Numbered from the stretch's first letter, positions 5,550-7,989 are shown. The stretch is DNA of 64,000 nt from a bacterium (GCA_037200905.1 JBBCGN010000002.1:22879-86878), one strand, 5' to 3'. Notes: a model not told the origin generated them from the sequence alone. Numbers and translations: made by a program.

Positions 5550-5786
5550 ATGAAAAAAATAACTACTGTTGCTGGTACATCTTTTCTTGTTTGGCTATTT
5601 TTCTCTCCAATAATAGGTATTTATCTTTTTTCAAAAACGTATCCTGATTCTACTTTTCCCTATTTGTTAATTTACGTTTTAGCGTCCTATCTTGTTCTTG
5701 GTGTTTTAGGATATTTTATTGTAAAGAATACCGGAGGATATTGGGGTCAGCCACTATTTTTAGTCTCTATTTATAGAGAAAGGTGA
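5550..5786 (+). CDS. Small two-TM membrane protein (possible immunity/orphan) with its 3' end supplied by a REP repeat
   Basis: The 78-aa ORF has two hydrophobic helices. Its last codons (GYWGQPLF...) are encoded by the 24-nt repeat at 5736-5759. Confidence 0.5.
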   Translation: MKKITTVAGTSFLVWLFFSPIIGIYLFSKTYPDSTFPYLLIYVLASYLVLGVLGYFIVKNTGGYWGQPLFLVSIYRER

Positions 5787-5798
5787 CTGACCCCAATA
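5736..5798. repeat. REP-like hairpin (an 'empty' copy of the RAYT-flanking inverted repeat)
   Basis: GGATATTGGGGTCAGCCACTATTT at 5736-5759 is 24/24 identical to 7127-7150. The inverted partner GGTGACTGACCCCAATA lies at 5782-5798. The arms TATTGGGGTCAG(C/T)CAC are separated by ~27 nt. Confidence 0.8.
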
Positions 5799-5814
5799 AC
5801 CTGGTAGAGGAAAT

Positions 5815-5994
5815 ATGAATGCAGTCGGCGAAGCTATGCGAACCAAAGCAATAAATGGTACAATTAATAAAATATCTGTAAATACAGCGGTGAAATCAGC
5901 AATAGGTTCACAGGCAGCTGATTCAGTACGAACCGCTATCAGTGGTGCAATAGATAAAGTTAGAAAATTTATACAAAAATCAGCTACAAAATAG
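5815..5994 (+). CDS. Small hypothetical protein (59 aa)
   Basis: I found this ORF by hand (ATG 5815, TAG 5992-5994); it is below the ORF-track size cutoff. An AGAGGA SD-like motif sits 6 nt upstream. The product is MNAVGEAMRTKAINGT...KFIQKSATK. Confidence 0.35.
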   Translation: MNAVGEAMRTKAINGTINKISVNTAVKSAIGSQAADSVRTAISGAIDKVRKFIQKSATK

Positions 5995-6004
5995 CTATAA
6001 AATT

Positions 6005-6256
6005 ATGAAAAAACAAAGATATGTTGGATTTATTGGTTCTCTTGTTTTCGTTGCTTTAATCTTTTTAGAAGTCGGGTATAAAAGATTTTTTTCCGAAATA
6101 GTTCTTATCTTCATTGGAATTTTATTAGGATACCTAGCCATTTCTTTTGTTTTTTATGCTTTAATAGGGGATTGGCAAAAATCTTTCAGACAAGGATTTA
6201 AGATTATTCTAGTACCAATAATAGTTGGATTAATTTTCCGGTTTTTACTGCATTAA
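6005..6256 (+). CDS. Small membrane protein (83 aa, 2-3 TM)
   Basis: The ORF lies in the low-GC island and encodes long hydrophobic segments. Confidence 0.5.
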   Translation: MKKQRYVGFIGSLVFVALIFLEVGYKRFFSEIVLIFIGILLGYLAISFVFYALIGDWQKSFRQGFKIILVPIIVGLIFRFLLH

Positions 6257-6283
6257 AATTAAAGAACCAAGACTGGGGCCTAA

Positions 6284-6742
6284 ATGGATACTCAAGAAAA
6301 TCGCATAAAAATAGCTATTCCCATAAGTATTGGATCTCATAAAGGTGCAGACGAAACTCTATGGGCATTAAAAGTTGAAGATAATAAAGCAAAAATTGAT
6401 AATATTCCTGTGCATGTAAATAACGTCTCACTTTCAGATATTGTCGAATATGGAAAATCACAAGACAACTTTATCTTTAATTTTGTTAAAGTTATTGAGA
6501 AAAGTGGTATAAAAACAATTCGACTTTCATACAAAGATTCTTTACTAAAGAATAGAACAAAAATTTTTAAAGAAAAAATATTTCCTAAACTTCAATCTTT
6601 AGGATGTAGTTATGAAGGAAGTCCAGAAATAATTGCTATTAGCGTACCGAAATCGACAGACTTGGATCAAGTCGTTAAGGAGTTAAACGAATTTAAGGAT
6701 AAAGGGTATGAAATTGAAATCGCAGACCCAGGCACTAACTAA
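6284..6742 (+). CDS. DUF4265-like protein (candidate immunity protein)
   Basis: The pattern ETLWALKVEDNKAKIDNIPVHVNNVSLSDIVEY matches the recalled DUF4265 signature (E.lWa...y.idNiPf....v..gDvV). Confidence 0.55.
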   Translation: MDTQENRIKIAIPISIGSHKGADETLWALKVEDNKAKIDNIPVHVNNVSLSDIVEYGKSQDNFIFNFVKVIEKSGIKTIRLSYKDSLLKNRTKIFKEKIFPKLQSLGCSYEGSPEIIAISVPKSTDLDQVVKELNEFKDKGYEIEIADPGTN

Positions 6743-6760
6743 GACAGTTCTTACCCTAAT

Positions 6761-7162
6761 ATGACAGACGAAGAATACAAAGATTTACACAAAAAAATAA
6801 TTGAAGAGCAGAAGGCGATATGCCAAAAATATAATGTGGAATGGACTCCAAGTTCTCCTGATATGAAAATTGGTATATCAAAAAATATTAAAAGCAGCAC
6901 TATGCCAATTAATGGCCTGCGTCATCCAGTTGAAAAAGAAACAGCTGGGTGGTATATCTGGGCTGGTGATTTTTCGGATAAAGATGATTTCTTTGATCCT
7001 GTTCATGTTGAACATTTATCTGATGACTTACCAATAGTACTCAAATATTTAGGTCTTCCGCCAGGATGGAGATTCCAAATTGATGACAAAGGACATGAGG
7101 ATGTTTGGTTTGACGAAAAACTTCTCGGATATTGGGGTCAGCCACTATTTATGATATACTAG
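6761..7162 (+). CDS. Candidate immunity protein (paralog B of 5191..5547) with a C-terminus replaced by REP sequence
   Basis: It has GWYIWAGD and LGLPPGWRFQIDDKGHEDVWFDEKLL motifs. Where paralog A ends ...KLLKS*, this copy reads on as ...KLLGYWGQPLFMIY* through the repeat at 7127-7150. Confidence 0.7.
   Translation: MTDEEYKDLHKKIIEEQKAICQKYNVEWTPSSPDMKIGISKNIKSSTMPINGLRHPVEKETAGWYIWAGDFSDKDDFFDPVHVEHLSDDLPIVLKYLGLPPGWRFQIDDKGHEDVWFDEKLLGYWGQPLFMIY
7127..7150. repeat. REP-like repeat, left flank of the RAYT gene
   Basis: GGATATTGGGGTCAGCCACTATTT is identical to 5736-5759. The core GGGGTCAGCCAC is the reverse complement of 7846-7857. Confidence 0.85.
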
Positions 7163-7166
7163 AGGC

Positions 7167-7838
7167 ATGCCGCGAATCACCAGAACTGACGTAGGAGGAG
7201 AAATATACCATGTGTTGAATCGAGCCAATGCTAGGGTTCAGATTTTTGATGATGATGGAGACTACAAATTATTTGAAAATATTTTAGAAGAAGCCGTAAA
7301 GAAATTTGATATGAGACTGCTCGCATATTGCATCATGCCGAATCACTGGCATCTGGTGTTGTATCCAAAAAAAGACGGTGATCTGTCTAAATTCATGAGC
7401 TGGCTCACGAATACCCATACCAGAAGGTGGCATACCATGAAGGGCACTATCGGGCAAGGACACTTGTATCAAGGAAGATATAAATCCTTCATCTGTCAGA
7501 AGGACGCTCATTTCGTTGCGCTCGTTCGCTATGTAGAACGAAATGGCAAAAAAGCCAAACTATGCAAGCTTGCGCAAAACTGGAAGTGGTCCAGTATCTG
7601 GAGGAGGGAATATGGAACAATTAATCAGAAAAAGTTGCTCTCGGCCTGGCCAGTTGATATGCCTAGAAGTTATTTGTCCTTCGTTAATGAGCCGCAAAAA
7701 GAAGATGAAGAAGAAGTAATTGAAAGGTCGATCATTAAAAGCAATCCTTTTGGTGGCCTAGGCTGGACTGAAAAGGTAGTTGAAAAATTCGGACTCGAAC
7801 AGACGCTTAGGGGTGTAGGCAGACCGAAGAAAACCTAA
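7167..7838 (+). CDS. REP-associated tyrosine transposase (RAYT; IS200-like Y1 transposase family)
   Basis: The product is 223 aa. It begins YHVLNRANARVQIF, carries the HUH motif in CIMPNHWHLVLYP, and has YQGRYKS and RYVERNG (catalytic Tyr region), ending with WSSIW. Confidence 0.85.
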   Translation: MPRITRTDVGGEIYHVLNRANARVQIFDDDGDYKLFENILEEAVKKFDMRLLAYCIMPNHWHLVLYPKKDGDLSKFMSWLTNTHTRRWHTMKGTIGQGHLYQGRYKSFICQKDAHFVALVRYVERNGKKAKLCKLAQNWKWSSIWRREYGTINQKKLLSAWPVDMPRSYLSFVNEPQKEDEEEVIERSIIKSNPFGGLGWTEKVVEKFGLEQTLRGVGRPKKT

Positions 7839-7843
7839 AGAAT

Positions 7844-7879
7844 GGTGGCTGACCCCATTAACTCTGACCCCATTAACTC
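7844..7879. repeat. REP-like repeat, right flank of the RAYT gene, with a 15-nt tandem duplication
   Basis: The sequence is GGTGGCTGACCCCATTAACTC followed by TGACCCCATTAACTC. Confidence 0.8.
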
Positions 7880-7976
7880 AGTAGGGAACATCACCAACAA
7901 CGTGCTGTATGCTTCGCTCTCCGACAACCTCAACACTCCTACGGGCCAAATATCTTCCGCAGGCACCGGATAAAAG

Positions 7977-7989
7977 GGGTCAGGTACCT
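7977..7989. repeat. Solo REP half-site
   Basis: GGGGTCAGGTACC shares the GGGGTCAG core. It sits at the island/core-genome boundary, just before the comFC stop. Confidence 0.45.

What the first reader, a model, noticed from the sequence alone, without database searches (positions are those of the whole stretch)
5736..7989. RAYT transposase bracketed by inverted GGGGTCAGCCAC repeats, with a miniature 'empty' copy rewriting the 3' ends of neighbouring genes
Seen:
- An IS200-like Y1 transposase (HUH motif NHWHLV, YQGRY, RYVERNG) lies at 7167-7838.
- It is flanked by ATTGGGGTCAGCCAC (7131-7145) and its inverted complement GTGGCTGACCCCATTA (7846-7861).
- The right end is tandemly duplicated (TGACCCCATTAACTC twice).
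- A 63-nt hairpin at 5736-5798 has the same arms with only ~27 nt between them. Its left arm is 24/24 identical to 7127-7150.
- A further half-site sits at 7977-7989, giving six GGGGTCAG/CTGACCCC cores in 2.3 kb. I noticed none elsewhere in the window.
- The left arm supplies the last codons (GYWGQPLF...) of both ORF 5550-5786 and ORF 6761-7162. The uninterrupted paralog ends ...KLLKS* at the equivalent position.

Established: RAYTs are typically flanked by inverted REP sequences, which they are thought to mobilise.

Inference: an active or recently active REP/RAYT system is remodelling the toxin-immunity island. Such systems are mostly described in Proteobacteria, so one in a CPR-like genome would be noteworthy.
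Basis: partly seen in the sequence, partly recalled or inferred. Interest (0 to 1): 0.6.

Follow-up and report, generated by a model that had tools for sequence, protein, structure and literature searches.

The report
Hairpin-flanked tyrosine transposase element in CPR
A small transposase gene sits between two inverted copies of a DNA hairpin, with a gene-less miniature copy nearby; it belongs to a known but little-studied class of RAYT-like elements (TIRtrons) that turns out to be very common in the tiny Patescibacteria, so it is a solid but fairly ordinary find.

Summary
All six GGGGTCAG cores in the 64-kb window lie in 5743-7983. A Y1 HUH transposase gene (7167-7838) is bracketed by inverted repeats. 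A 68-nt inverted doublet (5735-5802) shares 24/24 nt with the left end. Two ORFs finish inside the repeats.

The element is not a classical REP/RAYT system. It fits the TIRtron/TIRYT class (Di Nocera 2013), equivalent to Group 1 RAYT or TnpA-Y1 subclass 2.1. Its repeats carry that class's GGGGWSAS core. The protein aligns end to end with proteobacterial plasmid TIRYTs, which are themselves flanked by GGGGTCAG/GGGGACAG repeats.

The family is abundant in Patescibacteria, with more than 7,300 homologues. One 19-nt bulged hairpin, AATGGGG-TCAG-CC(A)CCATT, recurs across many classes as gene-flanking pairs, intergenic solo copies, inverted doublets and arrays. Identical mini-elements sit at unrelated sites within single MAGs, which indicates mobility.

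In this window the left hairpins carry two substitutions that abolish folding. The 3'-end "rewriting" adds only short tails. Current activity is therefore unproven.

Extras seen in passing: an asymmetric stutter of partial hairpin copies, a promoter that would give leaderless mRNA, and repeated placement next to RHS toxin-immunity arrays.

Verdict: new member of a known kind, moderate interest.

The parts
7167..7838 (+). Y1 (HUH) tyrosine transposase gene, 223 aa, TIRYT-like. HuH motif is N59-H60-W61-H62. The putative catalytic Tyr is Y122 in RYVERN. A WKWSS motif and a GRPKK C-terminus are present.
   Evidence: Pfam Y1_Tnp 69 bits. NCBIfam REP_Tyr_transpos 63.6 bits versus IS200 19 bits. Y122 aligns with the catalytic Y132 position of ISDra2 TnpA. 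AlphaFold model has pLDDT 82 and its best PDB match is 4ER8 RayT. Full-length alignment to plasmid TIRYTs.
7127..7150 (+). Left end (LE). Hairpin motif ATTGGGGTCAGCCACTATT at 7131-7149 has 2 mismatches to the family consensus AATGGGGTCAGCCACCATT and no longer folds. The block also encodes the last 12 codons of the Imm33-like ORF 6761-7162.
   Evidence: (D8, I4). DNA fold -0.8 kcal/mol, z = -0.07.
7152..7160 (+). Extended -10 promoter-like box TGATATACT. It ends 6 nt before the ATG, which implies a leaderless mRNA.
   Evidence: Read. The same TGnTAnnnT box is found in 26 of 41 LE-gene junctions of relatives, ending 6 nt before the start codon in 22. The two-hexamer consensus scan did not call it.
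7841..7859 (-). Right end (RE). Exact consensus hairpin AATGGGGTCAGCCACCATT on the minus strand, inverted relative to LE, starting 3 nt after the stop codon.
   Evidence: 0 mismatches. Inverted pair I4. Folds at -4.0 kcal/mol, z = -2.8.
7865..7879 (-). Stutter: a second copy of TGACCCCATTAACTC. It is a partial tandem copy of the outer half of the RE hairpin and ends at GGGGTCA(G).
   Evidence: (7864-7871, minus strand). It is one instance of a family-wide asymmetric stutter: 60 of 156 hairpins versus 8 of 156 in the mirror control.
7973..7991 (+). Degenerate solo hairpin copy AAAGGGGTCAGGTACCTTT, in the spacer before the convergent ComF-like gene (8002-8652, minus strand).
   Evidence: D3, I12. 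Weak fold, -3.1 kcal/mol, z = -1.7.
5735..5802 (.). Miniature gene-less inverted doublet (MITE/REPIN-like). Arms are 5735-5754 and 5783-5802 with a 28-nt spacer. The left arm is 24/24 identical to LE. The doublet supplies the last 17 codons of ORF 5550-5786.
   Evidence: I3, D6, D7, D8. Fold -17.9 kcal/mol, z = -6.2. Motif copies at 5740-5758 (+, 2 mismatches) and 5779-5797 (-, 3 mismatches).
6761..7162 (+). Orphan Imm33-like immunity gene. Its natural end (...KLLKS*) is replaced by a tail encoded in LE (GYWGQPLFMIY*).
   Evidence: Pfam Imm33-like 146 bits covering residues 16-118. Paralogue comparison (D1).
5550..5786 (+). 78-aa orphan membrane-like ORF that ends inside the miniature doublet.
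   Evidence: No Pfam hit. No homologue other than itself among 5.8 billion proteins.
41..5185 (+). Context: the 3' part of an RHS/YD-repeat polymorphic toxin gene. The low-GC immunity island downstream (about 5100-7900) ends with the Y1 element.
   Evidence: Pfam SpvB, TcdB_toxin_midN, TEN_YD-shell on the 2626-aa product. GC profile.

Best explanation
The locus is a TIRtron. It carries a RAYT-like Y1 HUH tyrosine transposase gene of the TIRYT class (Group 1 RAYT, close to TnpA-Y1 subclass 2.1). The gene is bounded by inverted copies of a 19-nt bulged hairpin, AATGGGG-TCAG-CC(A)CCATT, which contains the class signature GGGGWSAS. An internally deleted non-autonomous derivative (5735-5802) and one degenerate solo hairpin accompany it.

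Proposed mechanism, inferred from the family and from IS200/IS605 and RayT biochemistry:
- The enzyme recognises the hairpin folded on single-stranded DNA, for example at replication forks.
- It nicks through its HUH/Tyr centre and rejoins strands.
- This moves or copies units bounded by hairpins: the full element, mini-elements and single hairpins.

The left hairpin sits just upstream of an extended -10 box, 6 nt before the ATG. The gene is therefore probably transcribed as a leaderless mRNA and may be auto-regulated by transposase binding.

Insertions fall mainly in intergenic DNA or at gene ends. When one lands just inside a 3' end, the host ORF reads on into the hairpin and gains a short tail of the type xWGQPLF. 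In this window the element arrived with, or in, a low-GC RHS toxin-immunity island. It now has mutated left hairpins, so it may be decaying rather than active.
For: **Shown in the window.**
- HUH and Tyr motifs and the Y1 fold are present.
- The protein scores better against the RAYT model than the IS200 model.
- Inverted repeats lie 17 nt upstream of the start codon and 3 nt after the stop codon.

**Shown in relatives.**
- The same repeat pair flanks homologues that are 63-78% identical in other Patescibacteria.
Nearly all are Patescibacteria, plus Elusimicrobiota and Omnitrophota.
- About two-thirds of the hairpins are not next to a Y1 gene. Of solo copies, 53 of 71 are intergenic, against 15% of random positions.
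- Lower-bound counts show several copies in single MAGs: 9 in Elusimicrobia bin N2.88, 7 in a Minisyncoccia MAG and 6 in a Kerfeldbacteria MAG.
- A 185-nt mini-element is 100% identical at two sites with unrelated flanks in one Liptonbacteria MAG. A different mini-element lies in both orientations at contig ends in a Kerfeldbacteria MAG.

**Class assignment.**
- The TIR core GGGGTCAG matches the published TIRYT consensus GGGGWSAS (PMC3733652; PMC6006769).
- Proteobacterial plasmid homologues align end to end at 29% identity.
- Those homologues are flanked by AAAGGGGACAG..., TTAAAAGGGGTCAGACCCC and ...GGAGGGTCAGG... inverted repeats.

**Hairpin and promoter.**
- The consensus hairpin folds at -5.7 kcal/mol, z = -3.4.
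- The promoter box is conserved.
- Stutter end-points cluster after AATGG(GG) and after GGGGTCA(G), on one side of the hairpin only.
Against: - No biochemistry exists for any TIRYT, so cleavage site, strand and products are inferred.
- Outside the 2.3-kb cluster there is no further copy in the 64-kb window. The rest of the source MAG could not be scanned.
- The window's left hairpins do not fold, so this copy may be inactive.
- The class-2 tyrosine motif Y---NP is replaced by YVERN(G/A), and HuH reads NHWH rather than NH[VYF]H (versus Table 1 of PMC6006769). The CPR clade may therefore be a separate subclass.
- No HTH Pfam domain is detected in the C-terminal part.
- Quentin et al. reported no REP-like structures for subclass 2.1 (PMC6006769).
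Confidence: 0.8

Rival explanations
1. It is a classical, domesticated REP/RAYT-REPIN system of the Group 2/3 type seen in E. coli or Pseudomonas. That would mean a single-copy, vertically inherited RAYT maintaining a large lineage-specific population of REP doublets.
For: The gene is flanked by inverted palindromic units and a REPIN-like doublet lies nearby. The best structural match is E. coli RayT bound to REP. The best NCBIfam model is REP_Tyr_transpos. Y1 gene GC partly tracks host GC, r = 0.68.
Against: The score of 63.6 bits is below the equivalog cut-off of 80. There is no 5' GT[AG]G foot on the hairpin. The same 19-mer occurs across many classes and in other phyla, not as a lineage-specific co-evolving REP. 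Copy numbers are units to about ten, not tens to hundreds. Truncated gene copies and deletion derivatives are common, which is IS-like. The window's gene is 10.7 GC points below its host.
Confidence: 0.08
2. It is an ordinary IS200/IS605-family insertion sequence and the nearby repeats are chance or local duplications.
For: Pfam Y1_Tnp matches. A profile search of PDB sequences finds only ISDra2 TnpA, weakly at E = 0.025.
Against: The IS200 equivalog scores 19 bits against a cut-off of 55. The tyrosine motif is Y---N, not Y---Q, and the central HuH residue is W (PMC6006769 Table 1). The end hairpins are inverted rather than in the same orientation on one strand. There is a 100-aa C-terminal extension shared with TIRYTs. 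No tnpB gene is adjacent. The hairpin is dispersed without the gene in more than 100 genomes.
Confidence: 0.03
3. The hairpins and the Y1 enzyme form a cassette-junction system for RHS toxin-immunity modules, analogous to attC hairpins and an integron integrase. Under this reading the 1.39-kb block 5736-7126, bounded by identical 24-nt left arms, would be a captured immunity cassette.
For: RHS homology lies in the same block of at most 8 kb in 7 of about 30 full-gene loci. The order toxin, immunity, Y1 recurs in the window, L002, L075 and L106. The element sits at the RHS core/tip junction in L029 and L060. A solo hairpin lies between an RHS-immunity pair and an orphan RHS-CT module in L114. 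The 24/24 direct repeats bracket four ORFs, including DUF4265 and Imm33-like.
Against: Most loci have no RHS gene, and most solo hairpins lie in unrelated intergenic DNA. No background control set was available. RHS arrays are permissive, fast-evolving sites where insertions are tolerated in streamlined genomes. No recombinant junctions or alternative cassette orders were observed.
Confidence: 0.07
4. The repeats are not mobile DNA. They would be conserved coding or regulatory sequence, such as shared C-terminal peptides, terminators or operators.
For: Two ORFs share the tail GYWGQPLF. The left hairpin overlaps the promoter region. In most homologues the right hairpin encodes NGG plus the stop codon.
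Against: The two ORFs are otherwise unrelated, and one has no homologue at all. The motif occurs on both strands, mostly intergenic, in unrelated contexts. No T-run follows it consistently. Identical mini-elements have unrelated flanks.
Confidence: 0.02

Closest known systems
TIRtron / TIRYT (Di Nocera et al. 2013, PMC3733652), equated by Quentin et al. 2018 (PMC6006769) with TnpA-Y1 subclass 2.1 and with Bertels et al. 2017 Group 1 RAYT (PMC5581495)
   Same: It is a RAYT-like Y1 protein of about 225-240 aa with a C-terminal extension. The gene is bracketed by inverted repeats carrying GGGGWSAS (here GGGGTCAG). The upstream repeat lies a few tens of nt before the start and the downstream one overlaps or abuts the 3' end. 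Repeat copies occur elsewhere as singles, dimers and clusters in modest numbers. There are signs of horizontal transfer and duplication. Plasmid representatives align over the full length.
   Different: The host is Patescibacteria, which neither survey sampled as far as I could read. HuH is NHWH. LYQGRY replaces LW[EQ]xRY. The tyrosine motif is YVERN(G/A) rather than Y[IV]ELNP. No HTH Pfam hit is found. The repeat is a compact self-folding bulged hairpin that is invariant across many classes. Quentin et al. found no REP-like structures for subclass 2.1.
REPtron: E. coli RayT (TnpA-REP) with REP/BIME, and Pseudomonas RAYT-REPIN systems
   Same: The Y1 HUH fold is shared, and 4ER8 is the best structural match. 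The gene is flanked by inverted palindromic units. Inverted doublets (REPIN-like) and arrays (BIME-like) exist. The position is mostly extragenic.
   Different: There is no GTAG foot. The score is below the NCBIfam equivalog cut-off. Copy number is 10- to 100-fold lower. The repeat is shared across phyla rather than lineage-specific. The gene itself decays and duplicates like an IS.
IS200/IS605 insertion sequences (IS608, ISDra2)
   Same: The HUH/Tyr catalytic core is shared and DNA hairpins sit at the element ends. Single-strand 'peel and paste' chemistry is the likely model. Y122 aligns with the ISDra2 catalytic Tyr.
   Different: End hairpins are inverted, not co-oriented. The tyrosine motif is Y---N, not Y---Q. 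A C-terminal domain is present and there is no tnpB. Hairpins are dispersed alone.
MITEs (non-autonomous deletion derivatives of DNA transposons)
   Same: The 5735-5802 doublet keeps both ends of the full element and no gene. Independent deletion derivatives have multiplied in other MAGs: L011/L107 retain the 3' 140 nt of the gene, and L068/L087 retain the 5' 90 nt.
   Different: No target-site duplication is evident, as expected for Y1 chemistry. Only one copy is present in this window.
H-rpt/ISAs1 elements at the ends of E. coli Rhs elements (recalled from my own knowledge, not checked here)
   Same: An IS-like element recurs at the distal edge of RHS toxin arrays.
   Different: The transposase family is unrelated. 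Here the association is only an uncontrolled count.

Membership tests
TIRYT / TIRtron (Group 1 RAYT, TnpA-Y1 subclass 2.1) | Y1 HUH core with a HuH motif and a catalytic tyrosine | tested here: met
   Pfam Y1_Tnp 69 bits. N-H-W-H and RYVERN are invariant in 15 family members. Y122 aligns with the ISDra2 catalytic Tyr.
TIRYT / TIRtron (Group 1 RAYT, TnpA-Y1 subclass 2.1) | Gene bracketed by terminal inverted repeats sharing the GGGGWSAS motif, at a short and similar distance from the ORF | tested here: met
   GGGGTCAG occurs in both arms, starting 7134 (+ strand) and 7849 (- strand). The same holds in L002 and L006 and in about 30 other loci. The consensus is taken from PMC3733652.
TIRYT / TIRtron (Group 1 RAYT, TnpA-Y1 subclass 2.1) | Full-length homology, including the C-terminal tail (SS motif, GRP[KR]K end), to recognised TIR-flanked proteobacterial members | tested here: met
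   tblastn covers 99-100% of the query on P. aeruginosa and R. rubrum plasmid genes. Alignment A2 shares WSS and GRP. Their TIRs were verified.
TIRYT / TIRtron (Group 1 RAYT, TnpA-Y1 subclass 2.1) | Class 2 tyrosine motif Y---NP and HuH of the form NHVH or NH[YF]H (Table 1, PMC6006769) | tested here: not met
   The family has YVERN(A/G) and NHWH. This argues for a separate, divergent subclass rather than against the class-level relationship.
TIRYT / TIRtron (Group 1 RAYT, TnpA-Y1 subclass 2.1) | C-terminal helix-turn-helix domain (Bac_DnaA_C / HTH_23 / HTH_28-like) | tested here: inconclusive
   No Pfam HTH hit in the window protein. The model shows helices at 143-207. The Legionella homologue has weak Bac_DnaA_C and HTH hits.
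Canonical REP/RAYT (NCBIfam NF047646 equivalog; Groups 2/3) | Score at or above the curated cut-off of the REP-associated tyrosine transposase model | tested here: not met
   63.6 bits against a cut-off of 80. The plasmid TIRYTs are likewise just below it at 75.6 and 77.4 bits.
Canonical REP/RAYT (NCBIfam NF047646 equivalog; Groups 2/3) | Flanking REPs with a 5' GT[AG]G tetranucleotide at the foot of the hairpin | tested here: not met
   The hairpin foot is (A/T)AATGG, and no GTAG is conserved in 207 aligned copies.
Canonical REP/RAYT (NCBIfam NF047646 equivalog; Groups 2/3) | Tens to hundreds of extragenic copies per genome, lineage-specific | tested here: inconclusive
   The 64-kb window has only the local cluster. 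The same sequence is shared across many classes. The source MAG could not be scanned in full.
IS200/IS605 | IS200 transposase equivalog score; Y---Q motif; co-oriented subterminal hairpins | tested here: not met
   19 bits against a cut-off of 55. The motif is YVERN. The ends are inverted.
MITE-like non-autonomous derivative (the 5735-5802 doublet) | Both termini match those of an autonomous partner; no coding capacity; multiple copies | tested here: inconclusive
   Termini and the right outer flank match the full element (D6-D8). The doublet is 68 nt with no gene. Only one copy is present in this window. Multiplication is shown only for analogous minis in other MAGs.

The most novel reading that the evidence does not exclude
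In Patescibacteria, the Y1 enzyme and its hairpins may do more than ride along in RHS loci. They could act as single-strand recombination junctions that capture, displace or shuffle RHS toxin-tip and immunity cassettes, in a way analogous to attC hairpins in integrons. That would account for three placements: at the distal end of toxin-immunity arrays, exactly at the RHS core/tip junction, and between modules. It would also account for the 24-nt identical left arms that bracket a 1.39-kb immunity block in this window.
Probability: 0.08. Interest if true: 0.7.

Novelty: new member of a known kind. Interest (0 to 1): 0.35.

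Why it matters
TIRYT/Group 1 proteins are the largest RAYT group, yet none has been studied biochemically and their function is unknown. The Patescibacteria clade offers an unusually clean natural data set:
- one invariant 19-nt hairpin;
- thousands of gene copies;
- independent mini-elements;
- a one-sided stutter whose end-points (after GGGGTCA/G in the loop) suggest where the enzyme or a stalled polymerase acts.

This makes recognition and cleavage directly testable with short oligonucleotides.

For CPR biology, it adds a widespread mobile repeat family to genomes usually described as streamlined and repeat-poor. The repeat breaks assemblies at contig ends. The possible link to RHS toxin-immunity arrays deserves a controlled test.

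For this particular window the finding is a well-behaved example, not a surprise.

Tried and rejected
1. **Outer-stem covariation.** By eye the bases flanking the 19-mer seemed to extend the stem. A permutation test on 162 copies showed no excess pairing at any of six outer positions, so I dropped the idea.
2. **Rfam.** No family matched the hairpins. There were two chance-level hits only.
3. **Single-sequence search of PDB.** It found nothing relevant. A 15-sequence profile gave only a weak ISDra2 hit. A structure prediction and Foldseek search were needed to see RayT.
4. **Empty-site test for the miniature copy.** ORF 5550-5786 has no homologue but itself, so no pre-insertion allele could be found.
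5. **Two-hexamer promoter scan.** It did not call a promoter at LE because there is no -35 box. The promoter claim rests on the conserved extended -10 box alone.
6. **Viral contigs.** One 18-mer hit had no Y1 gene and sat in an unrelated high-GC context. I treat it as chance.
7. **Non-CPR singletons.** Single hits in the genome scan (Patiriisocius, Pseudorhodobacter, Hyphomicrobiales, Neomarinimicrobiota, Bacteroidia and others) are compatible with the roughly 17 chance 18-mer matches I estimate for 596 Gb on both strands, or with mis-binning. I did not count them as family members.
8. **Literature.** A first search on 'RAYT' plus Patescibacteria returned only false word-start matches.
9. **Source genome.** I could not scan the rest of the source MAG (GCA_037975565.1).

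Full report
**1. The observation**

- GGGGTCAG occurs six times in 64 kb, all between 5743 and 7983. Shuffles give a mean of 1.26 and a maximum of 4.
- The longer motif TATTGGGGTCAGCCAC, allowing up to 3 mismatches, occurs at 5739+, 5783-, 7130+ and 7845-.
- ORF 7167-7838 encodes a 223-aa Pfam Y1_Tnp protein (69 bits) with NHWHLV, LYQGRY and RYVERNG.
- The blocks 5736-5759 and 7127-7150 are 24/24 identical.
- The arms 5735-5754 and 5783-5802 form a 90% complementary inverted pair. As single-stranded DNA the doublet folds at -17.9 kcal/mol, z = -6.2.
- TGACCCCATTAACTC is present twice in tandem after the right repeat.
- ORF 5550-5786 and the Imm33-like ORF 6761-7162 both run into a left arm and end ...GYWGQPLF.... 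The Imm33-like paralogue 5104-5547 ends ...EKLLKS.
- The only slip is a one-base offset in the coordinates of the right repeat, which is 7845-7860.

**2. What the repeat is**

The same pair of inverted repeats flanks homologous genes elsewhere, and there the sequence is AATGGGGTCAGCCACCATT / AATGGTGGCTGACCCCATT.

Each arm is itself a small bulged hairpin, AATGGGG-TCAG-CC(A)CCATT. It folds at -5.7 kcal/mol, z = -3.4.

The window's right arm (7841-7859) matches this consensus exactly. Both left arms (7131-7149 and 5740-5758) share two substitutions, ATTGG and CACTATT. These remove the fold: -0.8 kcal/mol, z about 0.

**3. How widespread it is**

The protein has more than 7,300 homologues in the 5.8-billion-protein collection. 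The top 120 are 68-78% identical, apart from one 175-aa fragment at 98%. Those that carry an organism name come from Falkowbacteria, Kaiserbacteria, Paceibacterota, Minisyncoccia or 'Patescibacteria group', or are labelled only 'bacterium'.

Almost all hits were in Patescibacteria of many classes, plus Elusimicrobiota and Omnitrophota.

In those loci:
- About one-third of the hairpins bracket a Y1 gene, with the + form upstream and the - form downstream, about 700 nt apart.
- The rest are solo hairpins, inverted doublets and tandem arrays.
- Solo hairpins are intergenic in 53 of 71 cases, against 15% of random positions in the same loci.

Several MAGs hold multiple copies. These are lower bounds: 9 in Elusimicrobia bin N2.88, 7 in a Minisyncoccia MAG and 6 in a Kerfeldbacteria MAG.

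**4. Evidence that hairpin-bounded units move**

In one Liptonbacteria MAG, a 185-nt mini-element (left hairpin, the last 140 nt of the gene, right hairpin) is 100% identical on two contigs. Homology ends right at the outer edge of the hairpins.

In a Kerfeldbacteria MAG, a different mini retains the first roughly 90 nt of the gene. It sits at two contig ends in opposite orientations.

L119 holds a mini that fuses the first six and last nine codons.

The window's doublet is the extreme case, with almost nothing left between the ends. Its similarity to the full element continues past the right hairpin (D6, D7). The "miniature empty copy" reading is therefore supported by analogy, although this particular copy is single.

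**5. Which known kind it is**

- By NCBIfam, the protein is much closer to the REP-associated tyrosine transposase model (63.6 bits) than to IS200 (19 bits). It is below the 80-bit equivalog cut-off.
- An AlphaFold model (pLDDT 82) finds E. coli RayT bound to REP (4ER8) as its best solved match. That match has a longer aligned span (148 columns) than the IS200/IS605 transposases give.
- A profile search of PDB sequences aligns Y122 with the catalytic tyrosine of ISDra2 TnpA.

The literature names this architecture exactly.
- Di Nocera et al. 2013 called RAYT-like genes flanked by terminal inverted repeats TIRtrons, and their proteins TIRYTs. They noted that many of the repeats share GGGGWSAS and that repeat copies occur as singles, dimers and clusters in moderate numbers (PMC3733652).
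- Quentin et al. 2018 equate TIRYTs with TnpA-Y1 subclass 2.1, which they equate with Bertels' Group 1 (PMC6006769).
- Bertels et al. 2017 describe Group 1 as the largest RAYT group, the most IS-like of the RAYT groups proper, and associated with about 12 copies of its flanking 16-mers (PMC5581495).

GGGGTCAG fits GGGGWSAS. I then tested the link directly.
- tblastn against plasmids found full-length matches at 24-28% identity in P. aeruginosa, R. rubrum, Burkholderia and Iodobacter. Legionella gave 37% over the core.
- Those genes are flanked by AAAGGGGACAGATTT... (32 nt, 100% complementary), TTAAAAGGGGTCAGACCCC (19 nt, 100%) and TCTGGAGGGTCAGGCC... (26 nt, 92%) inverted repeats.
- The P. aeruginosa and R. 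rubrum proteins share the MPR..R start, NHxHL, L[WY][EQ]xRYK, RY[IV]ExN, WSS and the GRP[KR] end with the CPR protein.

The departures are NHWH, Y in place of W in LYQGRY, and YVERN(A/G) instead of Y---NP. No HTH Pfam hit is detectable. I therefore file it as a divergent member of the TIRYT kind, possibly its own subclass. It is not a canonical REP/RAYT and not an IS200.

**6. How it probably works**

Shown:
- an intact HUH/Tyr enzyme;
- hairpin-forming ends;
- the same hairpin dispersed alone;
- mini-elements duplicated to unrelated sites.

Inferred from IS608/ISDra2 and RayT biochemistry:
- the enzyme binds the hairpin on single-stranded DNA;
- it nicks and rejoins, moving hairpin-bounded units.

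Two further sequence features constrain the model.
- **Promoter.** In 26 of 41 left-end/gene junctions an extended -10 box (TGnTAnnnT) follows the hairpin. In 22 of them it ends 6 nt before the start codon. In the window it is TGATATACT at 7152-7160. This implies a leaderless mRNA and places the transposase binding site over the promoter, so auto-regulation is plausible but untested. In most homologues the right hairpin itself encodes the last residues, NGG, and the TGA stop.
- **Stutter.** Many hairpins are preceded, on the 5' side of the GGGGTCAG-reading strand only, by partial tandem copies of their own 5' half. Of 156 hairpins, 60 have an extra AATGG within 40 nt, against 8 in the mirror-image control. 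Nineteen have an extra ATGGGGTCA, against 0. The partial copies end after AATGG(G)(G) or after GGGGTCA(G), and almost never further in: one of about 95 copies of 5 nt or more reached 15 nt. The window's duplicated TGACCCCATTAACTC is one such stutter. The clustering of end-points in the loop is compatible with a nick at TCA^G. It is also compatible with polymerase stalling and realignment at a protein-bound hairpin. I cannot tell these apart.

**7. The claim of "remodelling"**

The tails are real but small. The Imm33-like domain (residues 16-118 of 133) is complete, and 14 residues replace the last 2. The other ORF is an orphan with no homologue.

Across relatives, solo hairpins overlap ORF 3' ends no more often than random positions do: 7 of 71 against 10.6%. 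Rewriting of 3' ends is therefore an occasional by-product, not a habit.

The element is compositionally foreign. The Y1 gene is 42.8% GC and the rest of the window is 53.5%, the largest mismatch among 22 loci. Family-wide, gene GC tracks host GC with r = 0.68.

The host backbone is Patescibacteria. Its PilM is 70-74% identical to proteins of Minisyncoccia, Nomurabacteria and Paceibacterota.

With non-folding left hairpins and no other copies in 64 kb, present activity is unproven.

**8. Noticed: a link with RHS loci**

The window's order is RHS toxin, immunity genes, then the Y1 element. This order recurs in L002/L093, L075 (orphan RHS-CT, DUF4265, Y1) and L106.
- In L029 and L060 the element's left hairpin cuts the RHS ORF a few codons before the DPxGL core/tip junction.
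- In L011 a mini abuts an interrupted RHS gene.
- In L114 a solo hairpin lies between an RHS-immunity pair and an orphan RHS-CT module.

That makes 7 of about 30 full-gene loci. I had no control set. Tolerance of insertions in these fast-evolving arrays is the simplest explanation. The more novel reading, hairpin-mediated cassette exchange, is not excluded and I give it about 8%.

**9. Verdict**

It is RAYT-like, hairpin-flanked and has a mini derivative. It is of the TIRYT/TIRtron type, common rather than exceptional in CPR, and not shown to be active here.
- Novelty: new member of a known kind. Only two papers in the searchable library mention TIRYTs, and none concerns CPR.
- Interest is moderate at 0.35. 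It comes mainly from the family-wide regularities: the invariant hairpin, the stutter, the mini-elements and the proximity to RHS loci. These make an unstudied enzyme class testable.

Noticed in passing
window 41-7860; L002 1-3700; L075 5850-7960; L106 23-2710; L029 7590-7960; L060 5320-6410; L011 6815-7440; L114 3690-5700: The Y1 element or its hairpins repeatedly sit at the distal edge of RHS toxin-immunity arrays, at the RHS core/tip junction, or between RHS modules. In L029 the RHS ORF reads ...NSYSY then REMGSATI*. In L060 it reads ...DPARLVGKWGQPLF...*. This applies to 7 of about 30 full-gene loci, and no background control was available.
   Followed up: partly
window 7850-7879; many loci, e.g. 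L034 2340-2390, L049 4750-4810, L083 3583-3640 (minus strand), L116 7400-7465: There is a one-sided stutter of partial tandem copies of the 5' half of the hairpin. It occurs in 60 of 156 hairpins against 8 of 156 in the mirror control. The copies end after AATGG(GG) or after GGGGTCA(G). This is a possible footprint of the cleavage site or of polymerase stalling.
   Followed up: partly
window 7152-7166; 41 LE-gene junctions in the loci: A conserved extended -10 box TGnTAnnnT ends 6 nt before the ATG of the Y1 gene, with no Shine-Dalgarno space. This implies a leaderless transcript, with the left hairpin lying over the promoter region.
   Followed up: partly
L132 11944-12612 (also L131, L133): A second, unrelated Y1 gene lies 1.3 kb from the TIRYT-like gene. 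It is 222 aa with NHFHLL and YIHLNP, and is about 15% identical to the first. It is flanked by its own palindromes (ACGGAGGGCTACCCTCCGT upstream; a similar imperfect copy downstream). Patescibacteria therefore carry more than one RAYT-like family, each with its own hairpin.
   Followed up: partly
L039, L068, L087, L089, L095, L105, L120 (hairpins within about 130 nt of contig starts or ends): Hairpins and mini-elements often lie at contig ends of MAGs, which suggests that this repeat family breaks short-read assemblies of CPR genomes.
   Followed up: no
L027, L052, L071, L097 (Elusimicrobia bin N2.88); L044, L065, L085, L113; L095, L096 (Omnitrophota): The identical 19-nt hairpin, with stutter, also occurs in Elusimicrobiota and Omnitrophota MAGs. 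One bin holds 9 copies with no Y1 gene in the fetched blocks. L095 carries a full Y1 gene at 68% identity. This points to transfer between co-occurring groundwater lineages or to mis-binning.
   Followed up: no
window 5100-7900 versus 8000-14000: A low-GC island (28-45%) holds two Imm33-like genes, a DUF4265 gene and three small orphan ORFs. It lies between the RHS toxin tip and a 52-70% GC backbone carrying ComF-like, PilM and type IV pilus genes. This is typical of an orphan-immunity array acquired horizontally.
   Followed up: partly
window 7880-7975: The 95 nt between the right-end stutter and the degenerate hairpin are GC-richer. They are read by a 43-aa ORF (7842-7973) that starts inside the right hairpin. 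This is possibly a remnant of a displaced gene end. It was not examined.
   Followed up: no
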